Part shown: piece by piece, positions 2,828 through 33,588 of the stretch
How positions within the stretch are numbered: position 1 is the first letter of the stretch
Layout: every line of letters starts with the position of its first letter
Assembly (NCBI GenBank): GCA_963837945.1
Contig: CAWIQD010000024.1
Location: 11,469-75,468, forward strand
Direction of reading: 5' to 3'
Length of the DNA stretch: 64,000 nt
Source of the DNA: an uncultured Acidobacteriota bacterium
GTDB lineage: Bacteria > Acidobacteriota > Thermoanaerobaculia > Multivoradales > DATKCC01
Notes under the pieces: generated by a model
Databases searched by the model: none
Told to the model about the DNA's origin: nothing
What the model saw: the letters and a program-made list of their open reading frames with translations, nothing else
Made by a program: the position numbers and the translations under genes

Positions 2828-3058
2828 CTACTCGCCGCCGCGCTTCCGGAGCTCTCGTCTCGCCGCCCGGATCAGGCGATCCCGCGACCACCCGGAGACG
2901 CTCAGGTCGGAGCGCTCCGCCGCTCGGCGCAGGAGCTCCAGGTCCGACTCCCTCATCCGCAGTCGAATCGCCGCCTCGAACCGCTCGGTGGGCCTCTTCT
3001 TGGGGCGAGCCATGGCCGGACTGTAGGCCGATACGATCAGCCCGTCAACCCTTGACAA
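2828..3058 (-). CDS. Small ribbon-helix-helix (RHH, CopG/MobC-like) DNA-binding protein; the alternative start at 3013 gives 61 aa
   Basis: The sequence ARPKKRPTERFEAAIRLRMRESDLELLRRAAERSDLSVSGWSRDRLIRAARREL shows the typical RHH beta-strand plus two helices pattern. Confidence 0.45.
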   Translation of the reverse strand: MSRVDGLIVSAYSPAMARPKKRPTERFEAAIRLRMRESDLELLRRAAERSDLSVSGWSRDRLIRAARRELRKRGGE

Positions 3059-4140
3059 AGGCTTGTTTTTCGGCCTACAATAACCAGATGGTCGATGACC
3101 TGATTCGGGGTGATGGCGCGGGGCGGGAAGGCGGCTCCGGGAGGACCTGTCCCGCGTGCGAGACCCCGGTGATCAAGTACGGCAAGACGGCCGCCGGGCG
3201 CCAGCGGTACTGGTGTCGGAGTTGCCGCAGCACCACGTCGGACGCCGCTCCTCGATCGCCGATCCATCCCATGCGGATTCCGCTCGAGCGCGCGGTGCTG
3301 TGCCTGCGGCTCCTGGTCGAGGGCAGCAGCATCCGGGCGGCCGAGCGGATCACCGGCACCCACCGGGACACGATCGGTCGGCTGCTGCTCCTGGCCGGGG
3401 GGCGGTGCGAGAGGCTCCTCGCCGAGCTGGTGACGGACGTCGAGGTCCACGACGTCGAGACCTCCGAGCTCTGGGCCTTCGTGGGGATGAAGGAGACGAC
3501 CCGGGAGCGGCTGGGCTTGGGCGACCCGCGGGTGGGCGACGCCTACGCGTTTCTCGCCATGGAGCGAGATTCGAAGCTGATCCTCGCCTGGCACCTGGGC
3601 CGGCGCACGGCCGAGCACACGGACGCGTTCGCCGAGAAGCTCGGCCGCGCGACCGCCGGCCGTTTCCAGCTCACGACCAGTGGGCTCGCGGCCTATCGCG
3701 AGGCCGTGAGCTTCCACTTGGGCGAACGCACGGACTACGCGACGCTGGTCAAGGAGGTCGGACCGGGGAAGGGCTCGGACGAGGGCCGCCGGCTGCCTCC
3801 GCGGATCGTGGGCGTGAAGAAGAACCGCGTCCATGGCGATCCGGATCCGGCGCGGGTTTGCACGTCTCACGCCGAGCGCGGAGCGCTGACGTTCCGGATG
3901 CAGTCGCGGCGCTTCACGCGGCGGACGAACGCCTTCTCGAAGTCTTGGAGGCACCACCGTGCGGCCCTGGCGCTCCAGCTCGCTCACTACAACCTCTGCT
4001 GGATGCACGCCTCCATCCGCATGACGCCGGCCATGAAGGCCGGGGTCGTCGGGAGGCCCTGGAAGCTTGAGGAGCTCCTGGCCGACGGGGGATCAGGGCC
4101 CGCGAGCGGGCTCTGATTTCGCCTCGTCGATTCCCGCGAG
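3030..4140 (+). mobile_element. IS1-family insertion sequence (boundaries approximate; imperfect terminal motif ATCAG(AG)CCCG near 3035 and 4120)
   Basis: A single fused InsAB-like transposase ORF. Weak terminal inverted similarity. No clear target-site duplication seen. Confidence 0.45.
3052..4116 (+). CDS. IS1-family transposase (fused InsA zinc-finger/HTH + InsB DDE domain)
   Basis: The N-terminal CPACETPVIKYGKTAAGRQRYWCRSCRST matches the IS1 InsA zinc ribbon (CPSC...NGKSTAGHQRYLCSHCR). The motif ELWAFVGMKE and the C-terminal RRTNAFSKS...HYNLCWMH match InsB motifs. Confidence 0.75.
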   Translation: MTKACFSAYNNQMVDDLIRGDGAGREGGSGRTCPACETPVIKYGKTAAGRQRYWCRSCRSTTSDAAPRSPIHPMRIPLERAVLCLRLLVEGSSIRAAERITGTHRDTIGRLLLLAGGRCERLLAELVTDVEVHDVETSELWAFVGMKETTRERLGLGDPRVGDAYAFLAMERDSKLILAWHLGRRTAEHTDAFAEKLGRATAGRFQLTTSGLAAYREAVSFHLGERTDYATLVKEVGPGKGSDEGRRLPPRIVGVKKNRVHGDPDPARVCTSHAERGALTFRMQSRRFTRRTNAFSKSWRHHRAALALQLAHYNLCWMHASIRMTPAMKAGVVGRPWKLEELLADGGSGPASGL

Positions 4141-4503
4141 CTCGCGGCACATTTTCCGGGCGAGCTCGTGGAGCTCCTGGGCGTAGCGAGCCGCGAAGGC
4201 GCGCAGCCGCGGGCTCGGGCTCCAGTGACCTCGCTGGTCACGCGGCTCGGCGAGCTCTCGGAGGTCTTCGACGCACGCCATCACGTCGGCGACGACCGCC
4301 TCGGTCCACGCGGCGTGCTCATCGCGGCTCGGATCGGGGCCGGTCTGCCAGGTATCCCAGCGCACGTAGTCGGCGAGGATCTTGCCGACCTGCTCGACGG
4401 CCCGCCGGTCGCTCGGGTCCTCGAAGCGCCAGAGGAGAGCCTGACGCATGGCGGTCGGCAGAGGCGGATAGGGCTCGCCCTCGTCATCGACGACCCGGAC
4501 CAT
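4093..4503 (-). CDS. Hypothetical protein (hypB), translationally coupled downstream of radC
   Basis: The start MVRVVDDEGEPY overlaps the radC stop (ATGA). No recognisable domain. Confidence 0.4.
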   Translation of the reverse strand: MVRVVDDEGEPYPPLPTAMRQALLWRFEDPSDRRAVEQVGKILADYVRWDTWQTGPDPSRDEHAAWTEAVVADVMACVEDLRELAEPRDQRGHWSPSPRLRAFAARYAQELHELARKMCRELAGIDEAKSEPARGP

Positions 4504-5225
4504 CACAACAGGCGCCTGTCCCGGAAGGAGGCCCAGCGCTGGGCGCCGCCGAGGATGATGTGGTCCGCGAGCCGGACTCCCACGGCCTCGCACGCCTCCG
4601 CCAGGCGCCGGGTGAAGCGGATGTCTTCTATGGTCGGGGACGGATCGCCCGACGGGTGCGTGTGGAAGACGACCACGCTCTCCGCCGCGCGGTCGAGGGC
4701 GAGAGCGATGATCTGGCGCGGCTCGACCGAGGCTCTCGTCAGCGTGCCGCGGAACAGCTCCGCCATGCCCACGAGCCGCCGCCGGGTGTCGAGGAAGAGG
4801 GCGCCCATCACCTCCTGGTCTCGGAGGACGTAGCGCAGCGCCAAGTAGCGGGCCACCTCGTCTGGCCGCCCCATGGGCTCTCGCTCGGGGACCTCGGCCC
4901 GGGCGAGGCGCCGGGCGAGCTCGAGCGCGGCGAGGACCGAGGCGGCCTTCACCTCGCCCAGGCCGCGGCGCTGGAGGGCCTCGGGGCGGATGCCCACCAG
5001 GCCGGGGAGCCCGGAGGTCTCCTCGAGGATCTCGCGGGCGAGCTCCAGGGAGCAGACGTCGCGCGAGCCGTGGCCCAGGACGAGGGCGAGCACTTCGGGG
5101 TCGGAAAGGGCTTCGCCACCGCTCCGAAGCAGGCGCTGGCGCGGGCGCTCGTCGGGGGGCATCTCCCGGATGAGGCTCGGGAGACCGCTTCTGGAGGGTC
5201 GGGCCCTGGGACGCCGGCGGGCCAT
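4503..5225 (-). CDS. radC: RadC-family JAB/MPN domain protein (UPF0758)
   Basis: Contains the JAMM motif HTHPSGDPSPTIEDIRFTRRL and the conserved RadC N-terminal helix-hairpin region (EVLALVLG). The true start is the internal Met at 5225; the 363-aa track ORF has a spurious N-terminal extension. Confidence 0.85.
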   Translation of the reverse strand: MARRRPRARPSRSGLPSLIREMPPDERPRQRLLRSGGEALSDPEVLALVLGHGSRDVCSLELAREILEETSGLPGLVGIRPEALQRRGLGEVKAASVLAALELARRLARAEVPEREPMGRPDEVARYLALRYVLRDQEVMGALFLDTRRRLVGMAELFRGTLTRASVEPRQIIALALDRAAESVVVFHTHPSGDPSPTIEDIRFTRRLAEACEAVGVRLADHIILGGAQRWASFRDRRLL

Positions 5226-5587
5226 CAGCCGTCCTCCCGGCCGTCGGCCCACTCGGCCCAGTCGGCGAAAGCCGCGGCGAAGTGGCGCTCCAGCTCTTCG
5301 GGCGTCCAGGCGAGGGCCCGGTCGGCGCCGGCGAAGGCGCTGTCCGAGCCCGGCGAGTCCGCCGAGTCCTCGGCGCCGTGGCCCACGACCCAGCAGCGGG
5401 TCGCCTCGGCCGCGAAGAGAATCCGGAAGCGCTCGCGGTCGCCGCCCTCGAGGCCCGTCTCGGCGGGCGGGAGGCAAGAGAGAGTCTCGGCCGCGAGGTG
5501 CAGAAGGCCGAGACCGATGGAGAGGGTGACCCGAAGCTCGTCGTTCGTCGGGTCGGCGGGCGCGATACGATCCCTCAAGCTGCTCAT
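5225..5587 (-). CDS. Hypothetical acidic protein (hypA), first gene of the hypA-radC-hypB operon
   Basis: GAGGAG ribosome-binding site 8 nt upstream of the ATG. Its stop overlaps the radC start (ATGA). No domain recognised. Confidence 0.35.
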   Translation of the reverse strand: MSSLRDRIAPADPTNDELRVTLSIGLGLLHLAAETLSCLPPAETGLEGGDRERFRILFAAEATRCWVVGHGAEDSADSPGSDSAFAGADRALAWTPEELERHFAAAFADWAEWADGREDG

Positions 5588-5982
5588 GAGGCACGCTCCT
5601 CGTGAGTGGTCAGGCCCGGCGGGTCGCTAGCGGCTTCCCGCCGGGCCGCTCCGTGGTTTCCGGGCTCGCATGGCCCCGGCTGTTCGGCCCAACCTACCCC
5701 GCCGTCAAGGCCCAGAGGTAGCCAACACGCCTTTGGGACAGCACTCCTCGTCGCAAGTAGTTGCTCGAAGGGTACGTCTTGCGCTAACCTCCGGGGAGGC
5801 CGAAAACGTGGGGAGGTTAGCGCAGACCCCGGAAAGCGTCGAAGCTCTTTGAAATCAGAGGGTTACCGAGATTCGTCCGGTTCTGGCCTCGCCGGTCTTG
5901 CCCCTCGCCGAGGCCCAGTCTGGGGAGGTTAGCGGAAATGGCCTTCCAACTCACTGAGCCACAAGGACTTGGGAGGGGTGGA
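5588..5982 (+). promoter_or_regulatory. Leader of CRISPR array 2; contains a hairpin GCGCTAACCTCC-N19-GGAGGTTAGCGC (~5781-5823) and a third copy of GGGGAGGTTAGCG at ~5931
   Basis: Non-coding region between the divergent hypA start and the first repeat. Its last 23 nt (CAAGGACTTGGGAGGGGTGGAG) are shared with the array 1 junction. Confidence 0.6.
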
Positions 5983-8900
5983 GTGGAAACCGGCGAGGAA
6001 CCTTTCGAGGGATTGCGACACGAGGCTGCCGAAGATGAGGGTGACTAAGCTCATGAGTGGAAACCGGCGAGGAACCTTTCGAGGGATTGCGACATTCTAC
6101 CGACTCTTTTCAGAGTCTAGGATTTCGCTGTGGAAACCGGCGAGGAACCTTTCGAGGGATTGCGACTGCTCGGAGACGGGATTCATGCACTCTTGCCCTC
6201 CGTGGAAACCGGCGAGGAACCTTTCGAGGGATTGCGACCATTGCGCGACTCCGGCCGCCGCTGTCAGGCTTTCGTGGAAACCGGCGAGGAACCTTTCGAG
6301 GGATTGCGACTACGTCCCTGGCCATCCCTCTCGGCGAACCTGTGGAAACCGGCGAGGAACCTTTCGAGGGATTGCGACCAGTGAGCGTCGACGTCATCCT
6401 TTCTCCGTGGAAACGCAGGTTTCGAGGTGGAAACCGGCGAGGAACCTTTCGAGGGATTGCGACATGTAGCGTGCCGACGATCGAGCTCAGTGCATAGCTC
6501 GGGTGGAAACCGGCGAGGAACCTTTCGAGGGATTGCGACATTGAACTGCGACTCGTCCGCACGAGTCATCTTCCGCTGTGGAAACCGGCGAGGAACCTTT
6601 CGAGGGATTGCGACATGTCTGGGCGTGACGGTCAATCTCCGACTCCTCCTCCGTGGAAACCGGCGAGGAACCTTTCGAGGGATTGCGACCATTGCTCGAT
6701 GCCGGCGTCGCTTTCCGAATTCGAGTGGAAACCGGCGAGGAACCTTTCGAGGGATTGCGACTGTACGACGCCGCGGCCGTTGGTCTCGGCGATCCGGGTG
6801 GAAACCGGCGAGGAACCTTTCGAGGGATTGCGACACTGAAACGTGTCGTCGAGGAATCGGCTATCCTCGCCTGGGTGGAAACCGGCGAGGAACCTTTCGA
6901 GGGATTGCGACATCTTCAGGACACGTCGCGTTCGTGAAGTCGTCGGCTCCTTGTGGAAACCGGCGAGGAACCTTTCGAGGGATTGCGACATGTCCGGAGT
7001 CGGTTCGAGGTCGGCATCGTCACCCTGCGTGGAAACCGGCGAGGAACCTTTCGAGGGATTGCGACATGTCGACTCCTGACCGGCTGACGGGCTGCGATAT
7101 CCTGGGTGGAAACCGGCGAGGAACCTTTCGAGGGATTGCGACGTGATGCACGTCGATCCGATGCAGTCACTGCCGTCTCCGGGGTGGAAACCGGCGAGGA
7201 ACCTTTCGAGGGATTGCGACATCGTCCGACAGGTCGCAGGGCGACTCGTTAGGTGGAAACCGGCGAGGAACCTTTCGAGGGATTGCGACATGTCGATTCC
7301 TGACTCGCTCCGGATGTCGTATGTCCTGTGGAAACCGGCGAGGAACCTTTCGAGGGATTGCGACATGAGAGTCTCCGCGCAGGATGCCGTCTCGTCGAGT
7401 GGAAACCGGCGAGGAACCTTTCGAGGGATTGCGACACTCGAACTCGTCGTCACAGGCCACTGGCGCGTGCTGTGGAAACCGGCGAGGAACCTTTCGAGGG
7501 ATTGCGACATCTCGACGGAACTTGCGCGATCCCGTCGATGCAGTGGAAACCGGCGAGGAACCTTTCGAGGGATTGCGACATCTCAGACGCTGCGTCGCTG
7601 GCATCGCTCGCTGCGTGGAAACCGGCGAGGAACCTTTCGAGGGATTGCGACATCTCGTGGCTTGCATGTCTTCCAATCCTGCTCGACGTGGAAACCGGCG
7701 AGGAACCTTTCGAGGGATTGCGACACTGGATGATCGCTTGTGTTCGTTGATCCTCGTCGAGGTGGAAACCGGCGAGGAACCTTTCGAGGGATTGCGACTT
7801 CAGCGAGGCTTCGCATGACTTAGCATCCTCCGGGTGGAAACCGGCGAGGAACCTTTCGAGGGATTGCGACATTTGCGGCTCCTGCCGAGAGCTCGTTACC
7901 CGAAGTGGAAACCGGCGAGGAACCTTTCGAGGGATTGCGACACTTGACGTGGTCAGGCCGCGAGTCGCCTACTGCGTGGAAACCGGCGAGGAACCTTTCG
8001 AGGGATTGCGACATCTCTGGCACCGCTCGGCGACGGCAGCTCCGTTCATGCGATACCTTGTGGAAACCGGCGAGGAACCTTTCGAGGGATTGCGACCCGA
8101 TGACTGCCAGAGTCTTCCAGAACATCTGCGTTCCGTGGAAACCGGCGAGGAACCTTTCGAGGGATTGCGACATGTCGTCCTGCGCCTGCGTCGGCTTAGT
8201 CGCAGTGTGGAAACCGGCGAGGAACCTTTCGAGGGATTGCGACATTCCGGGCAGTACGCTTTTCTCAGCCTCAACCTTGGGTGGAAACCGGCGAGGAACC
8301 TTTCGAGGGATTGCGACATCGCTCGAGTCGATTCATCTTGGCCTCCTTAAGTGGAAACCGGCGAGGAACCTTTCGAGGGATTGCGACATTCTACGATCCC
8401 GGCTCACTCTTACACGCCCTCCTGTGGAAACCGGCGAGGAACCTTTCGAGGGATTGCGACACGGTCGAGGTCTCGTCGGTGACATGGCCAGTTCTCCACG
8501 TGGAAACCGGCGAGGAACCTTTCGAGGGATTGCGACATACAGGAACTCCCTGTCGACGAGCATGGAGGTCCGAGTGGAAACCGGCGAGGAACCTTTCGAG
8601 GGATTGCGACATCCGAAGGACTGCCCTCGGCCGCGTCGTCGCTGTCTAAGTGGAAACCGGCGAGGAACCTTTCGAGGGATTGCGACACTTGCTGCTGCAC
8701 CCATGGTGCCGCAGCAGACCAGTCGGTGGAAACCGGCGAGGAACCTTTCGAGGGATTGCGACAGCTCTTCCGGGACGCATCCCGAGAAATTCCAACCGAT
8801 CGTGGAAACCGGCGAGGAACCTTTCGAGGGATTGCGACCTTACCTGGCGAAGCGGAGGCCATGCTCTGCGGTCGGGTGGAAACCGGCGAGGAACCTTTCG

Positions 8901-9584
8901 AGGGATTGCGACATTTTTTTCTGCCTCGAGAAGACAAGCGGCTTGCTGTGTGGAAACCGGCGAGGAACCTTTCGAGGGATTGCGACCGTTGTCTCCAACC
9001 GCTCTCCTCCACTCCGTCCACTGAGTGGAAACCGGCGAGGAACCTTTCGAGGGATTGCGACCCATTTCAAGAGAGACCAGTTGACACTGACCCCTCCCGT
9101 GGAAACCGGCGAGGAACCTTTCGAGGGATTGCGACACAATCGTGCGACGGAGAGATCGAAGTGGAGGACTTTCGCCGTGGAAACCGGCGAGGAACCTTTC
9201 GAGGGATTGCGACAGAGACTTGCAGGAATTGGATCATACCATCCTCCTTTTGGGTGGAAACCGGCGAGGAACCTTTCGAGGGATTGCGACTGGTCAGGGC
9301 CTAGGTAGCGGCCGTCGCCGTCGAAGTGGAAACCGGCGAGGAACCTTTCGAGGGATTGCGACAGCTCAACGATGAGTAGTTTCACGACGTCCTCCCGCGG
9401 TGGAAACCGGCGAGGAACCTTTCGAGGGATTGCGACATTGTGCCATCCGGGTGTAGTCCACGCCGTCGCCGGCGCTGGAAACCGGCGAGGAACCTTTCGA
9501 GGGATTGCGACGAGCGCTGGGCGAGCGGTCGATGGTTCCACGTCGAGGTGGAAACCGGCGAGGAACCTTTCGAGGGATTGCGAG
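5983..9584 (+). CRISPR. CRISPR array 2: 49 copies of the 37-nt repeat GTGGAAACCGGCGAGGAACCTTTCGAGGGATTGCGAC with spacers of ~31-43 nt; one 20-nt partial repeat at ~6407-6426; the penultimate repeat has G1->C and the last repeat ends GCGAG
   Basis: Direct counting of repeat ends (6019, 6093, ... 9511, 9584). The repeat differs from the array 1 repeat at 4 of 37 positions (8, 17, 21, 26). The same leader-repeat junction motif precedes it. Confidence 0.95.
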
Positions 9585-9913: not shown

Positions 9914-10041
9914 GCCCCTGCTCCCCGACCGGCCGGAACGGCTGATCCCGCCCCGGCCTTCACCATCTTCCCCGCATCGGGCGGGGAGGCGAGTCCATCT
10001 CCGCTCTGCTCGATCGGGCTCGTCCTGAAAGCTCTGGGACC

Positions 10042-10257
10042 TCACCTCGTCGCGTCGATGGAATCCAGGAGCCGTAAGGCTTCGGCCCGGTCCCCCTTCG
10101 CGGCGCGTGCCCGGAACCGCGTCTCGGCATCGAACTCGGCCAGGGCCTGGGTCGAGAGCTCTTCGACGAGGCGGTTCAGGCTGATCTTTCGACGGCGGGC
10201 GAGGTCTCGCAGTCGCTCGTGGGTGTCGTCGGGCAGTCGGATGGTCATCGTTCCCAT
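10042..10257 (-). CDS. RHH-type antitoxin-like protein (CopG/Arc family); no cognate toxin identified
   Basis: MTIRLPDDTHERLRDLARRRKISLNRLVEELSTQALAEFDAE is a classic RHH antitoxin N-terminus. The internal start is at MGTMTIRL. Confidence 0.55.
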   Translation of the reverse strand: MGTMTIRLPDDTHERLRDLARRRKISLNRLVEELSTQALAEFDAETRFRARAAKGDRAEALRLLDSIDATR

Positions 10258-11207: not shown

Positions 11208-11762
11208 TTACGGCAGCAGATCGGCGACGGCGACCGGTCCCCGGAGGGCCGCCGAGGAGAGCTGCTCGCCGTGGGCCGCGACCCGGTGCTCGGTGAAGCC
11301 GTCGCCTTCGGGCGCTCTGAAGACCTCCAGGCGACCCTCCGCCACGTTCACCAGCCAGACCTCCGGAATGCCGTGTCGCGCGTAGAGCGGGAGCTTGCGG
11401 TGGCGGTCGAAGGCGAGGCTCGAGTCCGCGACCTCCACCACGAGGGCGGCGGTCGCCGGGTGGGCCCCGAGGTAGTCCCGGGGGCGACCTGCGACGACCG
11501 CCACGTCGGGCTCCGGCTCGGAGTCCTGCCCGAGCGCCAGAGGGAGCTGGACCCGGAGACAGTACCCCTCGGCCAGCGCCGCGTCGAGGGCCTCGTAGAC
11601 CAGCTGGATCGTGCCGGCGTGCCGCGCGTTCTGCGGTGTCATCTCCAGGATCTCCCCCTCGATCAACTCGAGCCGCTCGTCTTCCTGGAAGACGCCCTGC
11701 TCGATCAAGCGGTCGTACTCCTCGCGGGTCCACTTGCGGGGCTGGTTGACGGCGACGCTCAC
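11208..11762 (-). CDS. Uma2-family (DUF820) PD-(D/E)XK putative endonuclease
   Basis: RKWTREEYDRLIEQGVF...ERLELIEGEILEMTPQNARHA is the canonical Uma2 N-terminus. Confidence 0.8.
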   Translation of the reverse strand: MSVAVNQPRKWTREEYDRLIEQGVFQEDERLELIEGEILEMTPQNARHAGTIQLVYEALDAALAEGYCLRVQLPLALGQDSEPEPDVAVVAGRPRDYLGAHPATAALVVEVADSSLAFDRHRKLPLYARHGIPEVWLVNVAEGRLEVFRAPEGDGFTEHRVAAHGEQLSSAALRGPVAVADLLP

Positions 11763-23581: not shown

Positions 23582-24382
23582 GTGAGCGAGCCCGAGGTCT
23601 CCATCGTCGTCCCGGCCTACAACGAGGCGGAGAGCCTGCCGGTGCTCGCCCGGGAGATCCGCGAGGCCTTGGGCGGCGCCGGGATCGCGTACGAGGTCCT
23701 CTTCGTCGACGACGGCTCGACCGACTCGACCCCCGAGGTGCTCGCCCGCCTGGCGGCCGAGGACCGGGCGATCCGGGTGCTGCGCCAGCGCCCGAACCGA
23801 GGCCAGTCGGCGGCGCTCGCGGGCGGCTGGCGGCTGGCGCGCGCGCCGGTCGTGGTGACCCTCGACGCCGATCTCCAGAACGACCCGGCGGACATCCCGC
23901 GCCTGCTCCAGGCCCTCGCCGGCTTCGACGTGGTCTCCGGCGTGCGCGTGAAGCGCCAGGACAACTGGCTGCGGCGCCTCTCCTCGCGGATCGCCAACGG
24001 CGTGCGCAACCGCTTGACCGGCGAGTCGGTCACCGACGTCGGCTGCACGCTCCGGGCCTGCCGGACGGAGCTCCTGCGCGAGCTGCCGATGTTCACCGGC
24101 ATGCACCGCTTCCTGCCCACCCTCCTCAAGCTCGCGGGCGCGCGCATCACGGAGGTCCCGGTCGGCCACCGGCCGCGGCGCTTCGGCACGACCAAGTACG
24201 GCATCCACAACCGCCTCTGGCGCGGCCTCGTCGACCTCGCGGCGGTGCGCTGGATGCAGAAGCGCTGGATCGACACGGGGCGGGTCGAAGAGGTGACGCC
24301 GCCCCCCGGCGAGCCGCGGGGAGTCACTCCGCTCCCGGCAGGACCTCGAAGCCGGCGATCCGGAAGTGGTGGTCGAAGGTGA
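23582..24382 (+). CDS. GT2-family polyprenol-phosphate glycosyltransferase (ArnC / DPM1-like)
   Basis: VSIVVPAYNEAESL...VLFVDDGSTDST...TLDADLQNDP motifs. Confidence 0.8.
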   Translation: MSEPEVSIVVPAYNEAESLPVLAREIREALGGAGIAYEVLFVDDGSTDSTPEVLARLAAEDRAIRVLRQRPNRGQSAALAGGWRLARAPVVVTLDADLQNDPADIPRLLQALAGFDVVSGVRVKRQDNWLRRLSSRIANGVRNRLTGESVTDVGCTLRACRTELLRELPMFTGMHRFLPTLLKLAGARITEVPVGHRPRRFGTTKYGIHNRLWRGLVDLAAVRWMQKRWIDTGRVEEVTPPPGEPRGVTPLPAGPRSRRSGSGGRR

Positions 24383-24734
24383 AGGCTCGGCGGAGCTTGC
24401 GCCGCTCCATGAGGACGAACGAGACGCAGTCGGTGAAGCTCACGTCCTGGTCGTGGTAGGTCTCGAAGGAGGCGAGGGCGGCGAGCTCTGCCTCGGCGTC
24501 GGGGCGAATCAGCTCGAGGGCGCGCGACGTATACAGCCGGCGAACGACATCTGCCGCGAAGTGGTGGCCGGCCCGGCGCCCGATGAGCGTCACGGCCTCG
24601 TCGATCACGAAATTGCTCGTCACGCAGCGCTCCCCCGAGCGGCCGATCTCCGCCCAGAAGCCGGAAGCGGCGGCGTGGTGCTGGTCCTTCGCCAGGTGCC
24701 GGCCCAGGAAGGCGCCGGTGTCGACGAAGATCAA
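24324..24734 (-). CDS. vapC: PIN-domain toxin VapC
   Basis: MIFVDTGAF start and the conserved acidic residues. The TTG start overlaps the vapB stop. Confidence 0.75.
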   Translation of the reverse strand: MIFVDTGAFLGRHLAKDQHHAAASGFWAEIGRSGERCVTSNFVIDEAVTLIGRRAGHHFAADVVRRLYTSRALELIRPDAEAELAALASFETYHDQDVSFTDCVSFVLMERRKLRRAFTFDHHFRIAGFEVLPGAE

Positions 24735-24967
24735 CCCCGCTCCCCGTAGAGATAACGGTCGTGCTCTCGAGAGAGGTCTGGAGGTACCGGGCCTTCGAAG
24801 ACCGGAACCTCCGCGAACAGAGGATCGTCCTGCCAGTCCCGCCGCGCATCCAGCCTCCGCTCCAGGGTCTCGCGGATGAGCTCGGCGAGCGAGATTCCCA
24901 GCCTACTCGCGATCTCCTGAGCCCGGAGCTTCAGGTCCTCCGGCAGCATGATGGTGGTTCTCGTCAT
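24731..24967 (-). CDS. vapB: VapB-type antitoxin (RHH/CopG-like)
   Basis: Small protein immediately upstream of vapC with translational coupling. MLPEDLKLRAQEIASRLGISLAELIRETL is RHH-like. Confidence 0.65.
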   Translation of the reverse strand: MTRTTIMLPEDLKLRAQEIASRLGISLAELIRETLERRLDARRDWQDDPLFAEVPVFEGPVPPDLSREHDRYLYGERG

Positions 24968-24977
24968 CGGTCGTGCT

Positions 24978-25258
24978 CCTAGTGGTCTGATTCACAAATC
25001 CCTTGTCTTTCGTTGCGGTGCCGCGCGGCCGGATACCAGGCGCCGCGACGCAGGCGATGCCGAGCCATCGTCGAGGAGCGGCAACGCCGTAGGCGGCCGC
25101 GCGCCGCCGCAACCCGAAGGGCGCAGGGGGATTGCGGGCGTCTCCTGCGTTGCTCGTCGTCGACGATGCTACGGCATCGCCTCCTCCTCTCGCCTTGGAT
25201 CCACTCCGCAAGACCCCTGCGCGAAAGATAAGGGATTCGTGAATCAGACCACTAGTGG
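24978..25258. mobile_element. 281-bp palindromic MITE-like element with 34-35 bp near-perfect terminal inverted repeats (CCTAGTGGTCTGATTCACAAATCCCTTGTCTTTCG ... CGAAAGATAAGGGATTCGTGAATCAGACCACTAGTGG)
   Basis: The arms are rich in A/T relative to the genome. The interior is itself an imperfect palindrome. It starts ~11 bp upstream of the vapB start codon. Confidence 0.55.
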
Positions 25259-25322
25259 TCGACCGCCATAATATCACCGCCATAACCAAGCTGGCGGCCC
25301 GAAATAGGGCTGGCTCGGGGCC

Positions 25323-25871
25323 CTACTCGAACTCTTTGACCGGCGGCGCCTGGTCGCGGCCGACGCGGCCGGTTTCGATCTCGGCCTGGAAGTAGTTCTC
25401 GCCCCGGATGGGCGCGCCGGCGAAGCGGCGGAGCATGGCGATCTGGCCGACGTGCGAGAGGGCGTCGGCGATGGGTCCGCGGAAGATCTTCTCCGCCGGC
25501 AGGCAGCCCTCGTCGGCGGCGGCCAGCGCCTGGTCGAGGCGCTCGAGGGCGGCGAAGAAGCGCTCGACCTCCTCGTCCCAGGAGAGCGGCTCGGCGCCGG
25601 TCCAGCGGTACTCCCCCCGGCTCATCCGGAACGCCCAGTCGAGGAGGTCGCCCACGTGGGCCAGGATCTCGACCGGCGTGCGGGTCGTCTCGCCGGCCCG
25701 GAAGGCGGCGAAGGTGGCGGGCGCGCCGCGGAGCGCCTTGCCGCCGCGGTAGGCGAGGGTGGCGACGGTGTGACGGAGCAGCTCGATCTTGGGGTCGGGC
25801 CGATCGCGTGGGGCGCGGGAGGTGGGCTCGCTCATGCCCCGATCATCTCCCGGCCCGCGCCGCTCGCTCAA
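25323..25871 (-). CDS. DinB/YfiT-like superfamily protein (probable start at MSEPTS ~25835)
   Basis: IELLRHTVATLAYRG...ILAHVGDLLDWAF resembles DinB_2 four-helix metal-binding proteins. Weak. Confidence 0.35.
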   Translation of the reverse strand: MSERRGPGDDRGMSEPTSRAPRDRPDPKIELLRHTVATLAYRGGKALRGAPATFAAFRAGETTRTPVEILAHVGDLLDWAFRMSRGEYRWTGAEPLSWDEEVERFFAALERLDQALAAADEGCLPAEKIFRGPIADALSHVGQIAMLRRFAGAPIRGENYFQAEIETGRVGRDQAPPVKEFE

Positions 25872-26359
25872 TCGCTCGGGCGGAGCCCGGCGTCATACTG
25901 CGACGAAGTGTCGGGCCACCCTCCCGGGCATTCGTTCGAGGCCCTGGTCGGCGTTCCGGGTGCGCTTGCAGACGCGACTGAAGTCCGAGACGCTGATGGC
26001 TTGCGCCTCGAGAAGGTCGAGCCAGAGGTCGAACGGGTGCGCGACCCTCCCGCGGCCGAGCCCGCCAGGGCCGTGAGGGCTGCTCGTCGGTCGGACGTCA
26101 CGAAGATTGCGTCGTGGCCATGCACCAGGGCCCAGGCAATGGCTTCGTGCTCTGCGAGGTTCGTGGTCTGCCTTTCCTCACCGTGCAGATCGAACAACAC
26201 TTCCTCGGCAGGGTCTCCGCTGCCCACGAGAACCCCGAAGACTTCGATTTCCGTGGCCGAGGAGACCAATAACCGTCCGCTCGGGTACGCACTCAGGTCC
26301 TCGGATAGCTTGAGGTCGGAAAGGACGTCAAGGGGACCATCGTCGATGATCCAGCGCAC
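25868..26359 (-). CDS. PIN-like domain protein with a Ser/Thr-rich C-terminal tail
   Basis: ...AEHEAIAWALVHGHDAIFVTSDRRA resembles the C-terminal half of PIN nucleases. The N-terminal IIDDGPL is acidic. Confidence 0.35.
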   Translation of the reverse strand: MRWIIDDGPLDVLSDLKLSEDLSAYPSGRLLVSSATEIEVFGVLVGSGDPAEEVLFDLHGEERQTTNLAEHEAIAWALVHGHDAIFVTSDRRAALTALAGSAAGGSRTRSTSGSTFSRRKPSASRTSVASASAPGTPTRASNECPGGWPDTSSQYDAGLRPSD

Positions 26360-26363
26360 CTTC

Positions 26364-27476
26364 TCAAGCCCAGGTCACGATGTCGCGACCGCGGCCCGCC
26401 GAGATCACGCCGGTCGTCGCCGCCTCCGACGCGAGAGCCGCGATCACGCCTTGCGCGATCGGGGAGACCTCGCCCGCCGGCGGAAAGACCTCTGCCTCCC
26501 GTTCGAGCTGCCGGGCACTCGAGCTCTGGCCGGGTGTCCTTTCGAACGCCGCGCTCCAGTCGTGATCTTCGCTTTGGGTCGCGCGATCGAGCGCCTCGGC
26601 TGTCACTGGCTTGATGAGACCGCAGTTCTTGGCGTGCCAGATCGCTCCACGAATGGAGAAGCCCCATCGCCGTGCGAGCTCCTCGACTTTGCGCTCCGGC
26701 TCTCGGATCCGACGACCGTCCCCGGCTCGGAACCAGTGCTGGACCTCGTCCCGGGGCGCCAGAAACGCCGGCGCGAAGGCCCGAGCCCGCTGTTCCGTCG
26801 CCGTGTGAAAGTTCCCGGTGCCCTCGGCCCAGGATAGCTGGGTGGTGAGATCGCGATCCCCCGAGTCATGAAGCAGGTGACACAGCTCGTGCGCGAGAAG
26901 AGCCCGGCGGCTCAGAACGGACCGAGACCTGGGGGAACGATCATTGAGCAAGATGACCGGGAGAGCTTCCCGTTCCCAAAGGCTCGCGGCATCCAAGCTC
27001 GCGGAGGAGAGCTCGGCTCGCGCAACGTGGACTCCGGCCTCCGTCAACAGCCGTTCGAGCTCCAGGATGGGGCCGGGCCGCGGAAACAGCGACCACCGGG
27101 CCGTTTGGCCCATCTGATAGCCCTGCTTCCAGGGTTCGACTCGCTCCCCAACCGGTCTCGGATCGCGTAGATCGGCGAGCCGGATCGGGCGGCCGACCTG
27201 ACTCGCCAGGAACCCGCCGATCCGGCTCAGCTCTGCGGCCAGGGACAGCGTGCGCAGGTCGTCCGACGTCAGCGCGACGCCCGCCGCGGCACGGAACCGT
27301 GCGACGCTCCGCCGGGGACTGCGATCTGCTCCGCTGGCCAGGGTGCCACTGTCAACGGCCAGCCCTCGGCAGATCGCCTCGAGCTTCCGACGGATGGATT
27401 GGCGATCCGGCCTCGATGTCCTGGAGGCGATCGGCCGTGACACCCGACCACTGGGCGACTCGCTCGATCGAGGCAC
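26364..27476 (-). CDS. ImmA/IrrE-family (M78) zinc metallopeptidase; probably the C-terminal part of an HTH-ImmA fusion interrupted by a frameshift
   Basis: HEXXH motif LAHELCHLLHD together with DUF955-like context. Confidence 0.6.
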   Translation of the reverse strand: MPRSSESPSGRVSRPIASRTSRPDRQSIRRKLEAICRGLAVDSGTLASGADRSPRRSVARFRAAAGVALTSDDLRTLSLAAELSRIGGFLASQVGRPIRLADLRDPRPVGERVEPWKQGYQMGQTARWSLFPRPGPILELERLLTEAGVHVARAELSSASLDAASLWEREALPVILLNDRSPRSRSVLSRRALLAHELCHLLHDSGDRDLTTQLSWAEGTGNFHTATEQRARAFAPAFLAPRDEVQHWFRAGDGRRIREPERKVEELARRWGFSIRGAIWHAKNCGLIKPVTAEALDRATQSEDHDWSAAFERTPGQSSSARQLEREAEVFPPAGEVSPIAQGVIAALASEAATTGVISAGRGRDIVTWA

Positions 27477-27591
27477 CGAAGTCTTCCCGCCGGTGGCGCA
27501 AGCGATCCGCCAAGGAGTCGATTCGGCTCTGGAGCTGAACAGTCATCCGGGTCGTCCTGCTGGAGGTGGCCAGCGGGCGAAGGCCACCCAA
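27352..27591 (-). CDS. XRE-family helix-turn-helix domain (probable N-terminus of the ImmA/IrrE protein in another frame)
   Basis: FGASIERVAQWSGVTADRLQDIEAG is an HTH_XRE motif. The ORF overlaps the ImmA frame by ~125 nt. Confidence 0.45.
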   Translation of the reverse strand: MGGLRPLATSSRTTRMTVQLQSRIDSLADRLRHRREDFGASIERVAQWSGVTADRLQDIEAGSPIHPSEARGDLPRAGR

Positions 27592-27639
27592 TGAGTCTAA
27601 CAGCTCGTGGTGAAATGTGCCGTCACCAACCCTCTCCTC

Positions 27640-28317
27640 CTACCCCGACGCCGTCTCGGCAATCAGCCCGTCCGGGCCCCGTCGGTGAGGCTCAGTGGGC
27701 GGCACCTCCTTGAAACGGCCCGCGCCGCTCGCGGGCTGAAGGGCCGCCCGCTCCACCGCCCGCGCGCGGGCGACGCTCTCGGCGATCACCTTGGCGTAGT
27801 AGCGGGGCATCGAGGCCTGGACCGCGGGGGCGATCGCGGCCGGGTCGGCGGTGGCTCCGGGCGCCAGGCCGTCGAAGGCGGCGATCCGGCCGTCCTCGAG
27901 CAGCGGGCGCACCCAGGTCAGGGGCTCGCTCGCCACGTCGGTGACCGTCGCGGCGCGGATCGCTCCGGCCGGGTCGAAGGCGACGCCGACGCCCAGCGGG
28001 CCGTGCTCGGACGCGGTCCAGAGGAACACGACCGAGCCCACCAGTGCGCCGCCCGCGTCGCGGCCGACGTAGAGCTGGAGCTCGTCGGAGTTCGGGCTCC
28101 AGCCGGTCGCCTCGCGGACCCGCCGGGCGACGTCCGCCGTCAAGTCCTTGGCGAAGAGATTGGTCGCGCCGGGGAGGACTTGCTGGACGAAGGCGCTCTT
28201 CTTGACCAGCTGCACGTTGGGAGTGATGTGGGCGAAAGCGGGCGCGGCCAGGAGGCTCGCGGCGGCGGCCAGGACCGGGAGGATCGACCGGCCGGCGAAG
28301 AAACCGGTGTTACGCAT
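27640..28317 (-). CDS. Secreted FMN-binding-domain-like protein
   Basis: Signal peptide. GAIRAATVTDV resembles the FMN_bind flavinylation region. Weak. Confidence 0.3.
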   Translation of the reverse strand: MRNTGFFAGRSILPVLAAAASLLAAPAFAHITPNVQLVKKSAFVQQVLPGATNLFAKDLTADVARRVREATGWSPNSDELQLYVGRDAGGALVGSVVFLWTASEHGPLGVGVAFDPAGAIRAATVTDVASEPLTWVRPLLEDGRIAAFDGLAPGATADPAAIAPAVQASMPRYYAKVIAESVARARAVERAALQPASGAGRFKEVPPTEPHRRGPDGLIAETASG

Positions 28318-28909
28318 GGGAGGGCTCCTTGGGGGATCGCTGAAACCAGCACTGCGTCAGGGTGAGAACGAGGACGACGAGGTAGACCAGGCCCATCGCC
28401 AGGCCGCCGGCGACCGCGAGCGTCGCCCAGGCGACGCCCCACGCGGGCGCGAGGTGGGCGCCCCAGAGGCCGACGAAGTCCGCCGCCGGCGCCGCGAAGG
28501 CGAGGAGGACCAGAGCCGAGCGCACCCGCGAGCCGAGCTCGAGCCCCATCGCGATCGCCGCCAGGGCGAGGGCGCAGAGGGCGTAGGCCGGCACGTGGAC
28601 GTGGGTGTCCTGGACCAGGAGCTCGCGCTCGACGTGGTGCTCCCCGCGGTCGAGGTCGGCGAGCGAGATCGGGTGCTCGCCGGCCGGCCCGGCCGCGGCC
28701 GTGCCGGACACCTGAGCGCCCCGGGGGGCGAGCTGCCGCGCGACGCCGGCCGGCGTGAACGAGGAGAAGTCCTTCACCTGCCAGGCGCCGAAGAGGTCCG
28801 CGGCGCCCAGCAGCAGGAGGAACAGGGTGACGGCGAGCCGCAGCTCGAACGGCCCGCGCGGTAGACCGCCCAGCGCGAGGGCGGCGGCGGCTCTCGGCCT
28901 CTCCGGCAT
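28310..28909 (-). CDS. Membrane protein (4 predicted TM helices, His-rich loop GEHHVE..HVHVPAY); start at MPERPRAAA
   Basis: Hydrophobic segments. Start/stop overlap with the upstream barrel gene. Confidence 0.3.
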   Translation of the reverse strand: MPERPRAAAALALGGLPRGPFELRLAVTLFLLLLGAADLFGAWQVKDFSSFTPAGVARQLAPRGAQVSGTAAAGPAGEHPISLADLDRGEHHVERELLVQDTHVHVPAYALCALALAAIAMGLELGSRVRSALVLLAFAAPAADFVGLWGAHLAPAWGVAWATLAVAGGLAMGLVYLVVLVLTLTQCWFQRSPKEPSHA

Positions 28910-33279: not shown

Positions 33280-33588
33280 GTGCCACCCCCTCGTCCTGCC
33301 GGGATGGGGGTGCGGGTGGTCCGGAGCTTCCTCCGTCACGTGGAGGGATAAATGAGCTGCATCCCCCGCGCAGCCGTGTGGACTGCCGCGCCTAGAACCT
33401 TAAGCGCCAAGTGGGTGTCCGCGCCACCGGCCATCAGCGTCCCCGTTCGAGCGGGGCTGGCACAGTCCGGCGGGTGAAGACTCCCTAGTTGTATATGTTG
33501 GTTCTACCATGGGTTGGCCCATCACGAACCACGCAGGGGATGCAAACTCTTCGACCTTCGTCATATCTCTAGGACGGCCACCGGTGGA
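33280..33588 (-). ncRNA. Candidate non-coding RNA region between zapA and rny (possibly 6S/SsrS-like by synteny)
   Basis: A ~310-nt intergenic region with locally reduced GC (...CTAGTTGTATATGTTGGTTCTACCATGG...). 6S RNA commonly lies immediately downstream of zapA. No structure verified. Confidence 0.2.

What the first reader, a model, noticed from the sequence alone, without database searches (positions are those of the whole stretch)
25323..27591. HTH/ImmA-IrrE metallopeptidase regulator upstream of PIN-like and DinB-like genes: candidate regulated defence or stress module, next to vapBC
Gene order on the minus strand is XRE-HTH + ImmA (HEXXH) -> PIN-like protein with an S/T-rich tail -> DinB-like protein. 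HTH + ImmA/IrrE pairs (CapH/CapP, DdrO/IrrE-like) are known to gate DNA-damage or phage-induced expression of anti-phage operons. A PIN nuclease plus a DinB-fold metalloprotein as the regulated cargo is not a described defence system. The neighbouring vapBC and the MITE-like palindrome give the region a defence-island flavour.
Basis: inference. Interest (0 to 1): 0.5.

Follow-up and report, generated by a model that had tools for sequence, protein, structure and literature searches.

The report
Decaying HTH-peptidase/PIN toxin-antitoxin insert
This is a horizontally acquired two-gene toxin-antitoxin-type cassette of an already described kind (a fused DNA-binding/zinc-peptidase protein plus a PIN-like nuclease), probably degenerate in this genome, while the neighbouring DinB-like gene is an unrelated native gene, so there is no new three-gene defence system here.

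Summary
The genes exist, but the reading needs three corrections.

1. "XRE-HTH" and "ImmA" are one fused HTH-M78 gene (27546..26364, minus strand). It is split by a 1-nt deletion near 27406.
2. The "S/T-rich tail" of the PIN-like protein is out-of-frame translation after a second 1-nt deletion near 26062. The real gene is 26359..25893. This copy also lacks about 20 residues that all 44 relatives keep.
3. The DinB-like gene is not cargo.
   - It has native codon usage (GC3 0.95-1.0, against 0.73-0.83 for the pair) and more than 7,900 close homologues.
   - In three related genomes it sits in the same conserved neighbourhood without the module. One of them keeps a 77-nt relic of the PIN-like gene.

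In 27 of 27 loci from elsewhere, the PIN-like family lies directly downstream of a fused HTH-M78 homologue. None has a DinB-like gene within 6 kb.

The HTH-DUF955 + PIN-like architecture was described in 2017 and again in 2023. Verdict: an uncatalogued member of a known kind, probably decaying here. Low interest.

The parts
26364..27546 (-). Fused Xre-HTH + Peptidase_M78 (ImmA/IrrE, COG2856; RmrA-like) gene, about 393 aa once rejoined. The frame is broken by a 1-nt deletion near 27406 (GCC GG^ GAT, restoring ...IEAGD...). HELCH and the EQRARAFAPAFLAP motif are intact.
   Evidence: HTH_31 E 1e-9, Peptidase_M78 E 7e-10; RmrA E 1e-16; 22 homologues, single ORFs of 368-505 aa; AHE[LM]CHL[LV]HD fully conserved.
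25893..26359 (-). PIN-like putative toxin gene, about 155 aa once rejoined. GTG start 4 nt after the M78 stop. 1-nt deletion near 26062 (GCGG^GCTC, restoring ...ALAELGRGRV...). In-frame loss of about 20 residues at ~26250 (between ...SSATE and IEVFGV...).
25888..27742 (-). The ~1.85-kb inserted segment (promoter region + HTH-M78 + PIN-like), absent from the same site in relatives L032 and L030. L008 keeps only a 77-nt relic, matching window 26193-26117.
   Evidence: GC3 is 0.73-0.83 here against 0.93-1.0 in the flanking genes.
27611..27631 (-). Palindrome TGGTGACGGCACATTTCACCA (6-bp arms, 9-nt spacer), about 65 nt upstream of the HTH-M78 start. Candidate operator. This is inference only and no equivalent motif was seen in homologous loci.
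25323..25835 (-). DinB-fold protein, 170 aa, native gene, NOT part of the module. A conserved TTGAGCG...GATCG promoter-like stretch lies directly upstream in all four genomes.
24324..24967 (-). vapB (24731-24967, RHH) and vapC (24324-24734, PIN PF01850). A separate type II TA pair, conserved at this position in relative L032. Not part of the module.
24979..25255 (.). Palindromic MITE-like element with 34-nt terminal inverted repeats (94% complementary). Absent from the DinB-vapB spacer of L032. Not part of the module.

Best explanation
The region holds a horizontally acquired two-gene cassette of the class "fused Xre-HTH/M78 zinc-peptidase + PIN-like nuclease". This class is the three-domain toxin-antitoxin type of Matelska 2017, and is Rosmer-like. 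The cassette is inserted between two native genes.

Likely mechanism (inferred from the families, not shown here):
- The HTH-M78 protein represses the bicistronic operon through its HTH and keeps the PIN-like nuclease in check.
- A stress or phage cue activates the M78 peptidase. For CapP and IrrE this cue is single-stranded DNA or DNA damage.
- The peptidase cleaves the HTH-bearing protein, either itself or a partner copy.
- Repression and neutralisation are relieved, and the PIN-like nuclease cuts RNA, causing growth arrest.

In this genome the cassette is probably degenerate. The PIN-like gene has lost about 20 residues that every relative keeps. Both genes carry a 1-nt frameshift. A sister genome retains only a 77-nt relic at the same site.

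The DinB-like gene and vapBC are native or older neighbours with no functional link to the cassette.
For: Shown:
- Frames and rejoined proteins.
- Pfam HTH_31 + Peptidase_M78 on one protein.
- RmrA HMM hits, E 1e-16 to 2.5e-7 across 13 models.
- 27 of 27 PIN-like loci have a fused HTH-M78 homologue immediately upstream on the same strand, with a gap of roughly 10-25 nt between the matches in all but one locus. None of the 27 has a DinB-like gene within 6 kb (contexts).
- HEXXH and the downstream E...FAP motif are invariant.
- Acidic tetrad: D2/D3 in 42/44 and 41/44 (plus one E), E89 44/44, D109 44/44, D/E130 44/44.
- Foreign GC3.
- The insertion is delimited against three relatives, and L008 carries a relic.
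- The segment between the conserved T and the next strand is 2 residues here against 16-28 in 44 relatives.

From the literature:
- The same architecture is described in PMC5499597.
- The ImmA-domain antitoxin RmrA paired with varied toxins, including PIN-like ones, is described in PMC10440598.
- Rosmer is described as a Zn-peptidase antitoxin plus a toxin in bioRxiv 10.1101/2022.05.11.491447.
Against: - No experiment shows toxicity, neutralisation or cleavage for this family.
- The PIN-like family matches no Pfam, PADLOC, NCBIfam or PHROG model and no PDB sequence. Foldseek against PDB is not significant (best E 0.37, though to VapC).
- The two frameshifts may be assembly errors. At least four native genes in the window show the same kind of frame switch: TamB-like ~17062, BBP2 porin 29748, and TPR proteins ~52362 and ~58486. 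"Degenerate" therefore rests mainly on the ~20-residue deletion and the relic in L008.
- No conserved operator was found upstream.
Confidence: 0.75

Rival explanations
1. One reading: a three-gene stress or defence operon in which HTH+ImmA gate expression of a PIN nuclease and a DinB-fold metalloprotein.
For: The genes share a strand and are close together, with about 57 nt between the true PIN-like stop (25893) and the DinB start (25835). No terminator-like site was detected between them.
Against: None of 27 homologous modules has a DinB-like gene within 6 kb. DinB GC3 is 0.95-1.0 against 0.73-0.83 for the pair. The DinB-like family has more than 7,900 close homologues, while the PIN-like family has 45 hits and 197 representatives. 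Relatives L032, L030 and L008 have DinB in the same synteny without the module, and keep the same promoter-like stretch upstream of DinB.
Confidence: 0.04
2. The HTH-M78 protein is purely a damage- or phage-responsive transcriptional switch (a fused CapH-CapP or ImmR-ImmA). The PIN-like protein is an induced effector that is not neutralised by protein-protein contact, so this is not a true toxin-antitoxin pair.
For: Weak capP and capH HMM hits (6e-5, 0.012). CapH-CapP fusions exist, one of them next to a vapC-like gene in a DISARM locus (bioRxiv 10.1101/2022.04.27.489752). Phage "transcriptional regulator" phrog_2439 hits at E 7e-25.
Against: CapH/CapP are described as lying upstream of, and on the opposite strand from, their cargo operon (same preprint). 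Here the two genes are on the same strand, 4 nt apart, and co-vary across 27 loci, which is typical of TA pairs. RmrA models score far better than capP. A strongly conserved C-terminal motif (GxIS.GRA.ELLTW) sits just before the toxin gene and could be a toxin-binding element (inference).
Confidence: 0.15
3. The cassette is intact and functional in the organism. Both frameshifts are assembly errors, and the short PIN-like variant is still active.
For: Frame switches without stops also occur in at least four native genes. The porin case is a single uncompensated 1-nt gap relative to L008, where the gene is intact at 396 aa. The catalytic residues of both proteins are retained in the window copy.
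Against: Two frameshifts fall in 1.65 kb, against 4-5 in about 50 kb of native coding sequence. By my own Poisson estimate this has P of about 0.01 if errors were uniform, with the caveat that detection in native genes may be incomplete. The ~20-residue loss removes the helical connection between two strands and lies outside the range of all 44 relatives. The sister genome L008 has deleted the module down to a 77-nt relic.
Confidence: 0.25
4. A remnant of a prophage or ICE immunity region (ImmR/ImmA-like repressor-antirepressor), not a stand-alone module.
For: M78+HTH proteins are common in phages and ICEs (phrog_2439, phrog_87). The GC3 is foreign.
Against: The inserted segment is only 1.85 kb and contains nothing but the two genes. 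No integrase or phage gene lies nearby. In 27 loci the flanks are unrelated to each other. No tRNA or att-like repeat was noticed at the junctions, though this was not searched for exhaustively.
Confidence: 0.05

Closest known systems
HTH-DUF955 (COG2856, PF06114) + PIN-like three-component TA systems (Matelska, Steczkiewicz & Ginalski 2017, NAR; PIN-like clusters DUF4411.1, COG2405, PIN_14, PIN_20, PIN_26)
   Same: A fused N-terminal Xre-type HTH and HEXXH M78 peptidase is encoded immediately upstream of, and on the same strand as, a small single-domain PIN-like protein with four conserved acidic residues. The predicted logic is also the same: the protease cleaves the HTH and the nuclease is released.
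   Different: The PIN-like family here matches none of the current Pfam PIN models, including DUF4411 and PF01850. One distant member gives PIN_12 at E 0.027. I could not test whether it corresponds to the paper's non-Pfam clusters PIN_14, PIN_20 or PIN_26. Its distribution is Acidobacteriota (Thermoanaerobaculia), Myxococcota and Syntrophobacteraceae MAGs.
RosmerTA (RmrT/RmrA) anti-phage toxin-antitoxin system (Millman et al. 2022; Ernits et al. 2023)
   Same: The antitoxin-like partner has the same HTH + ImmA/M78 architecture and hits 13 PADLOC RmrA models (best E 1e-16, aligned over residues 11-314). RmrA is known to pair with many unrelated toxins, and NetFlax reports PIN-like partners of the ImmA node.
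   Different: No PADLOC RmrT model matches the PIN-like protein or six intact relatives, so PADLOC-type rules would not call Rosmer here. The last ~80 residues of the HTH-M78 protein lie outside the RmrA alignment. Anti-phage activity is untested.
CapH/CapP, ImmR/ImmA and DdrO/IrrE repressor-metallopeptidase switches
   Same: An M78 zinc peptidase with HEXXH plus an Xre-type HTH. Signal-triggered cleavage of the HTH protein is the plausible switch.
   Different: Those are two separate proteins, and CapH/CapP are divergently transcribed from their cargo. Here the domains are fused and co-directional with a single small cargo gene. The capP HMM hit is only E 6e-5.
VapBC type II TA
   Different: The partner is a ~390-aa HTH-peptidase, not a small RHH/AbrB antitoxin. 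The PIN-like protein is longer (170-185 aa), has extra helices, and has no PF01850 match.

Membership tests
HTH-DUF955/COG2856 + PIN-like TA class (Matelska 2017) | Single protein with an N-terminal Xre-type HTH and an M78/DUF955 domain that retains HEXXH | tested here: met
   HTH_31 residues 12-65 (E 1e-9), Peptidase_M78 residues 169-297 (E 7e-10) on the rejoined protein. AHE[LM]CHL[LV]HD conserved in all 23 sequences (one has G for C). In the window assembly the ORF is split by 1 nt.
HTH-DUF955/COG2856 + PIN-like TA class (Matelska 2017) | PIN-like gene directly downstream on the same strand | tested here: met
   4-nt spacer in the window; 27 of 27 loci.
HTH-DUF955/COG2856 + PIN-like TA class (Matelska 2017) | Downstream protein has a PIN-like fold with conserved acidic active-site residues | tested here: met
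HTH-DUF955/COG2856 + PIN-like TA class (Matelska 2017) | Toxicity of the PIN-like protein and neutralisation by its partner | not testable with these tools
   Needs expression assays.
RosmerTA (PADLOC-DB v2 definition) | RmrA model hit | tested here: met
   13 RmrA models, best PDLC03947 at E 1.3e-16 (58 bits). The tool gives no curated cut-off.
RosmerTA (PADLOC-DB v2 definition) | RmrT model hit on the adjacent gene | tested here: not met
   no PADLOC model at E<=1 for the window protein or six intact relatives.
RosmerTA (PADLOC-DB v2 definition) | Protection against phage | not testable with these tools
   Needs phage challenge.
CapH/CapP-regulated defence operon | Separate capH and capP genes, upstream of and divergent from the regulated operon | tested here: not met
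   Domains are fused and the gene is co-directional with its cargo. The criterion comes from bioRxiv 10.1101/2022.04.27.489752.
Pfam PIN (PF01850) / DUF4411 (PF14367) | Sequence match above the gathering threshold | tested here: not met
   no hit at E<=1, apart from PIN_12 at E 0.027 in one distant member.
NCBIfam spr1629 repressor/antitoxin (NF052239) | Score at or above the curated cut-off (335 bits) | tested here: not met
   46.4 bits.
DinB/YfiT superfamily (the 170-aa protein) | Four-helix-bundle DinB fold with a conserved His triad | tested here: met
Proposed HTH-ImmA / PIN / DinB three-gene system | Co-occurrence of a DinB-like gene with the HTH-M78/PIN-like pair across genomes | tested here: not met
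   0 of 27 loci; five DinB-like loci (four distinct places) have no intact module; L008 keeps a 77-nt relic.

The most novel reading that the evidence does not exclude
This small PIN-like family is absent from Pfam, PADLOC, NCBIfam and PHROGs. It gives about 200 representatives among 1.84 billion, and was found in 20 of 185,579 species genomes, all MAGs of Acidobacteriota, Myxococcota or Syntrophobacteraceae. It is always paired with its own clade of HTH-M78 proteins. It could be an uncatalogued Rosmer-type anti-phage effector family whose release is controlled by peptidase self-cleavage. Intact members such as P0009 or P0001 with their partners would be the ones to test, not the window copy.
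Probability: 0.3. Interest if true: 0.35.

Novelty: new member of a known kind. Interest (0 to 1): 0.2.

Why it matters
It matters little beyond annotation. The work removes a false lead: there is no PIN+DinB defence operon. It shows that the apparent novelty came from two frameshifts and a chance neighbour. It also adds one rare, uncatalogued PIN-like partner family to the known HTH-M78 (Rosmer-like/COG2856) toxin-antitoxin class.

Two points are of modest practical use. First, this assembly carries roughly one frame-breaking indel per 10 kb, so any "odd tail" or "split gene" in this window should be distrusted. Second, the slot between the 225-aa gene and the DinB-like gene is a variable site in this lineage: it holds the module here, a relic in L008, an unrelated ORF in L030, and nothing in L032. 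That gives a small natural series of TA gain and decay.

Tried and rejected
Nothing was found.
- Profile search of PDB sequences with the family alignment: no hits at E<=10.
- Exact look-up of the window's own DinB-like protein (P0046) to recover the source contig: not on record. The cluster look-up gave no organism names, so the organism is inferred only as a high-GC relative of MAGs in the Acidobacteriota neighbourhood.
- Search for a conserved operator upstream of the HTH-M78 genes in 22 loci: no shared palindrome. The window's own 21-nt palindrome is therefore only a candidate.
- Promoter/terminator consensus scan of 24200-28400: no sites, which is uninformative at this GC content.
- Considered and rejected taking the two frameshifts as proof of pseudogenisation, because native genes show the same defect.
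- Considered a prophage or ICE remnant and rejected it on the size and content of the insert.
- Literature search for a mechanistic study of Rosmer: none found in the held library.
- I did not use the third homologue search or the metagenome scan. The closest PIN-like relatives are already only 54-65% identical, so they would not have changed the verdict.
Full report
WHAT IS IN THE SEQUENCE

The 79-aa "XRE-HTH" ORF (27591..27352) and the 370-aa "ImmA" ORF (27476..26364) overlap in different frames. The HTH frame reads ...RLQDIEAG, and the M78 frame continues ...RQSIRRKLEAICRGLAVDSGTL, which is the rest of an Xre-type HTH. Rejoining them with one added base near 27406 (GCC GG^ GAT, giving ...IEAGD...) produces a 393-aa protein. 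It carries HTH_31 at residues 12-65 (E 1e-9) and Peptidase_M78 at residues 169-297 (E 7e-10).

The "PIN-like protein with an S/T-rich tail" (26359..25868) likewise changes frame near 26062. The tail GSAAGGSRTRSTSGSTFSRRKPSASRTS... is out-of-frame translation. The true continuation, (E)LGRGRVAHPFDLWLDLLEAQAISVSDFSRVCKRTRNADQGLERMPGRVARHFVAV*, ends at 25893.

The DinB-like gene starts at the ATG at 25835. It is 170 aa and identical to database protein P0046.

ARE THE FRAMESHIFTS REAL?

Homologues prove that the ancestral genes were continuous. 45 proteins of 113-209 aa (most 170-185 aa) align to the rejoined PIN-like protein, most over 94-99% of it. HTH-M78 homologues in 27 loci align across the junction in a single tblastn segment, and in the 22 I translated they are single ORFs of 368-505 aa.

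The same defect occurs in native genes, however. A codon-position GC model of the whole window and local translations show frame switches without a stop in four places:
- a TamB-like gene (~17062);
- the BBP2 porin (~29748);
- two TPR proteins (~52362 and ~58486).

The porin case is a single uncompensated 1-nt gap relative to relative L008. That gene is an intact 396 aa in three relatives. The assembly therefore carries roughly one frame-breaking indel per 10 kb, and the two frameshifts in the module cannot alone be read as decay.

Two frameshifts in 1.65 kb is more than the native rate predicts. My Poisson estimate is P of about 0.01, which is crude because detection in native genes may be incomplete.

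THE PAIR IS A CONSERVED MODULE; DinB IS NOT PART OF IT

The PIN-like family is rare.
- It gives 45 hits among 5.8 billion clustered proteins.
- It gives 197 representatives at E<=1e-3 among 1.84 billion in a full profile search.
- It occurs in 20 loci among 185,579 species genomes. All are MAGs labelled Thermoanaerobaculia/Acidobacteriota, Myxococcales/Myxococcota/Deltaproteobacteria or Syntrophobacteraceae, plus one Pseudomonadota and one unclassified bacterium.

In all 27 loci fetched (L001-L007 and L010-L029), a homologue of the rejoined HTH-M78 protein lies immediately upstream on the same strand. These homologues are 37-58% identical, and the gap between the two matches is about 10-25 nt in all but one locus. 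In none is there a DinB-like gene within 6 kb. The genes further out are unrelated from locus to locus: NYN, JmjC, Band_7, ammonium transporter, ParE, AAA ATPases and others.

The DinB-like protein belongs to a very large, tightly conserved family. It has more than 7,900 hits, the listed ones at 62-85% identity.

Codon usage separates the genes. GC3 is 0.95-1.00 in the DinB-like gene and 0.93-0.99 in the flanking native genes, but only 0.73-0.83 in the HTH-M78 and PIN-like genes.

SYNTENY SETTLES IT

- Relative L008 (a 3.07-Mb contig) is colinear with window 32588-27743 at 89.7% identity. This covers RNase Y, YmdB, a 114-aa gene, the BBP2 porin, Aq_1264_TM and a 199-aa gene. It then runs straight into the DinB-like gene. 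Between them lies only a 77-nt stretch that is 90% identical to window 26193-26117, inside the PIN-like gene.
- L032 has 44 nt between the upstream gene and DinB, followed by vapBC at 84% nucleotide identity to the window's vapBC.
- L030 has an unrelated 132-aa ORF in the slot.
- All four genomes keep the same TTGAGCG...GATCG stretch just upstream of the DinB start. This suggests DinB has its own promoter (inference).

The module is therefore a ~1.85-kb insert (27742..25888) that was present in the ancestor shared with L008 and has since been almost completely deleted there.

WHAT THE PROTEINS ARE

HTH-M78 protein:
- It hits 13 PADLOC RmrA (Rosmer antitoxin) models, the best at E 1.3e-16 over residues 11-314. 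capP reaches only 6e-5.
- NCBIfam spr1629 antitoxin scores 46 bits against a 335-bit cut-off.
- The phage "transcriptional regulator" phrog_2439 hits at E 7e-25.
- AHE[LM]CHL[LV]HD and E.RARAF.PAFLAP are conserved across the alignment, including the window copy. So is a C-terminal GxIS.GRA.ELLTW motif.

PIN-like family:
- It has no Pfam, PADLOC, NCBIfam, PHROG or PDB-sequence match.
- An AlphaFold2 model of member P0009, built from 44 sequences, is confident (pLDDT 94.8, pTM 0.88).
- Foldseek is not significant, though VapC is still its best hit.
- The canonical acidic tetrad is conserved: D2/D3, E89, D109 and D/E130 in P0009 numbering, in 41-44 of 44 sequences. It is retained in the window copy.

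STATE OF THE WINDOW COPY

Apart from the frameshifts, the PIN-like gene lacks the segment between the conserved Thr and the next strand. It has 2 residues there, against 16-28 in all 44 relatives. In the model this segment is the helical connection between two strands. I infer, but have not shown, that losing it damages the fold. Together with the relic in L008, I put the probability that the toxin gene is inactive here at about 0.6-0.65.

COMPARISON WITH WHAT IS KNOWN

- Matelska et al. 2017 (PMC5499597) describe PIN-like genes (DUF4411, COG2405, PIN_14, PIN_20, PIN_26) co-transcribed with fused HTH-DUF955/COG2856 genes. They propose that the protease cleaves the HTH to release the nuclease.
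- Millman et al. 2022 define RosmerTA as a Zn-peptidase antitoxin with a toxin of unknown function, citing that architecture.
- Ernits et al. 2023 (PMC10440598) report the ImmA/RmrA node, often with an N-terminal HTH, associated with PIN-like domains.

The architecture is thus known. What is new is only that this particular PIN-like family is uncatalogued.

By PADLOC-type rules the locus is not a Rosmer system, because it has no RmrT hit. It is not CapH/CapP-like in layout either, being fused and co-directional. It most likely works like these systems, but membership can be claimed only for the broad HTH-M78 + PIN-like TA class.

CONTEXT

The immediate neighbourhood is housekeeping and envelope genes: RNase Y, YmdB, 6S RNA, porin, GT2, an ArnT-like gene, TamB/BamA-like genes and sulfatase-TPR genes. 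It is not a defence island. Two CRISPR arrays do lie 16-25 kb away, at the start of the window.

VERDICT

The pair is real, but DinB is not part of it and the architecture is not new. This is a new member of a known kind and is probably degenerate here. Interest is 0.2.

Noticed in passing
window 24-2552 and 5984-9583: Two large CRISPR arrays with 37-nt repeats. The repeats are GTGGAAATCGGCGAGGGACCCTTCGGGGGATTGCGAC (~34 copies, running to the window start) and GTGGAAACCGGCGAGGAACCTTTCGAGGGATTGCGAC (~49 copies). The period is 72-81 nt, with 83 copies in all. No cas gene was seen next to them. An InsA-zinc-ribbon ORF (3052-4116, +) and RadC (4503-5594, -) lie between the arrays, and a Uma2-family endonuclease-like gene is at 11208-11762 (-).
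   Followed up: partly
window ~17062, 29748, ~52362, ~58486 (possibly also ~61326): Frame switches without a stop codon in native, high-GC3 genes: a TamB-like gene, the BBP2 porin (a 1-nt gap relative to L008, where the gene is an intact 396 aa) and two TPR proteins. The assembly appears to carry about one frame-breaking indel per 10 kb, so split genes and odd tails in this window should be distrusted.
   Followed up: partly
window 24979-25255: A 277-nt palindromic, MITE-like element with 34-nt terminal inverted repeats (94% complementary), lying between the DinB-like gene and vapB. It is absent from the equivalent spacer in relative L032. A 62-nt internal piece matches L008 at 10011-10072 (79% identity). 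There is only one copy in the window.
   Followed up: partly
window 33359-33542 (-): 6S/SsrS RNA (Rfam RF00013, 79.3 bits, full length), just upstream of the RNase Y gene.
   Followed up: no
window 27640-27742 (-); L008, L030, L032: The native 225-aa gene upstream of the insert has a different C-terminal tail of about 34 aa from its 193-199-aa orthologues. Homology to all three relatives ends at 27740-27743, so the insertion replaced the end of that gene.
   Followed up: partly
L030 3039-3437: In relative L030 the same intergenic slot holds an unrelated 132-aa ORF with a signal-peptide-like N-terminus and no Pfam hit. The slot therefore seems to be a recurrent insertion point in this lineage.
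   Followed up: no
L007 (JGI 3300085995 contig, 234 kb): There the HTH-M78/PIN-like pair sits among AAA_15/AAA_21 ATPase genes, an SMC_N/AAA gene and a ParE toxin pair. That context looks more like a defence island than the window's does.
   Followed up: no
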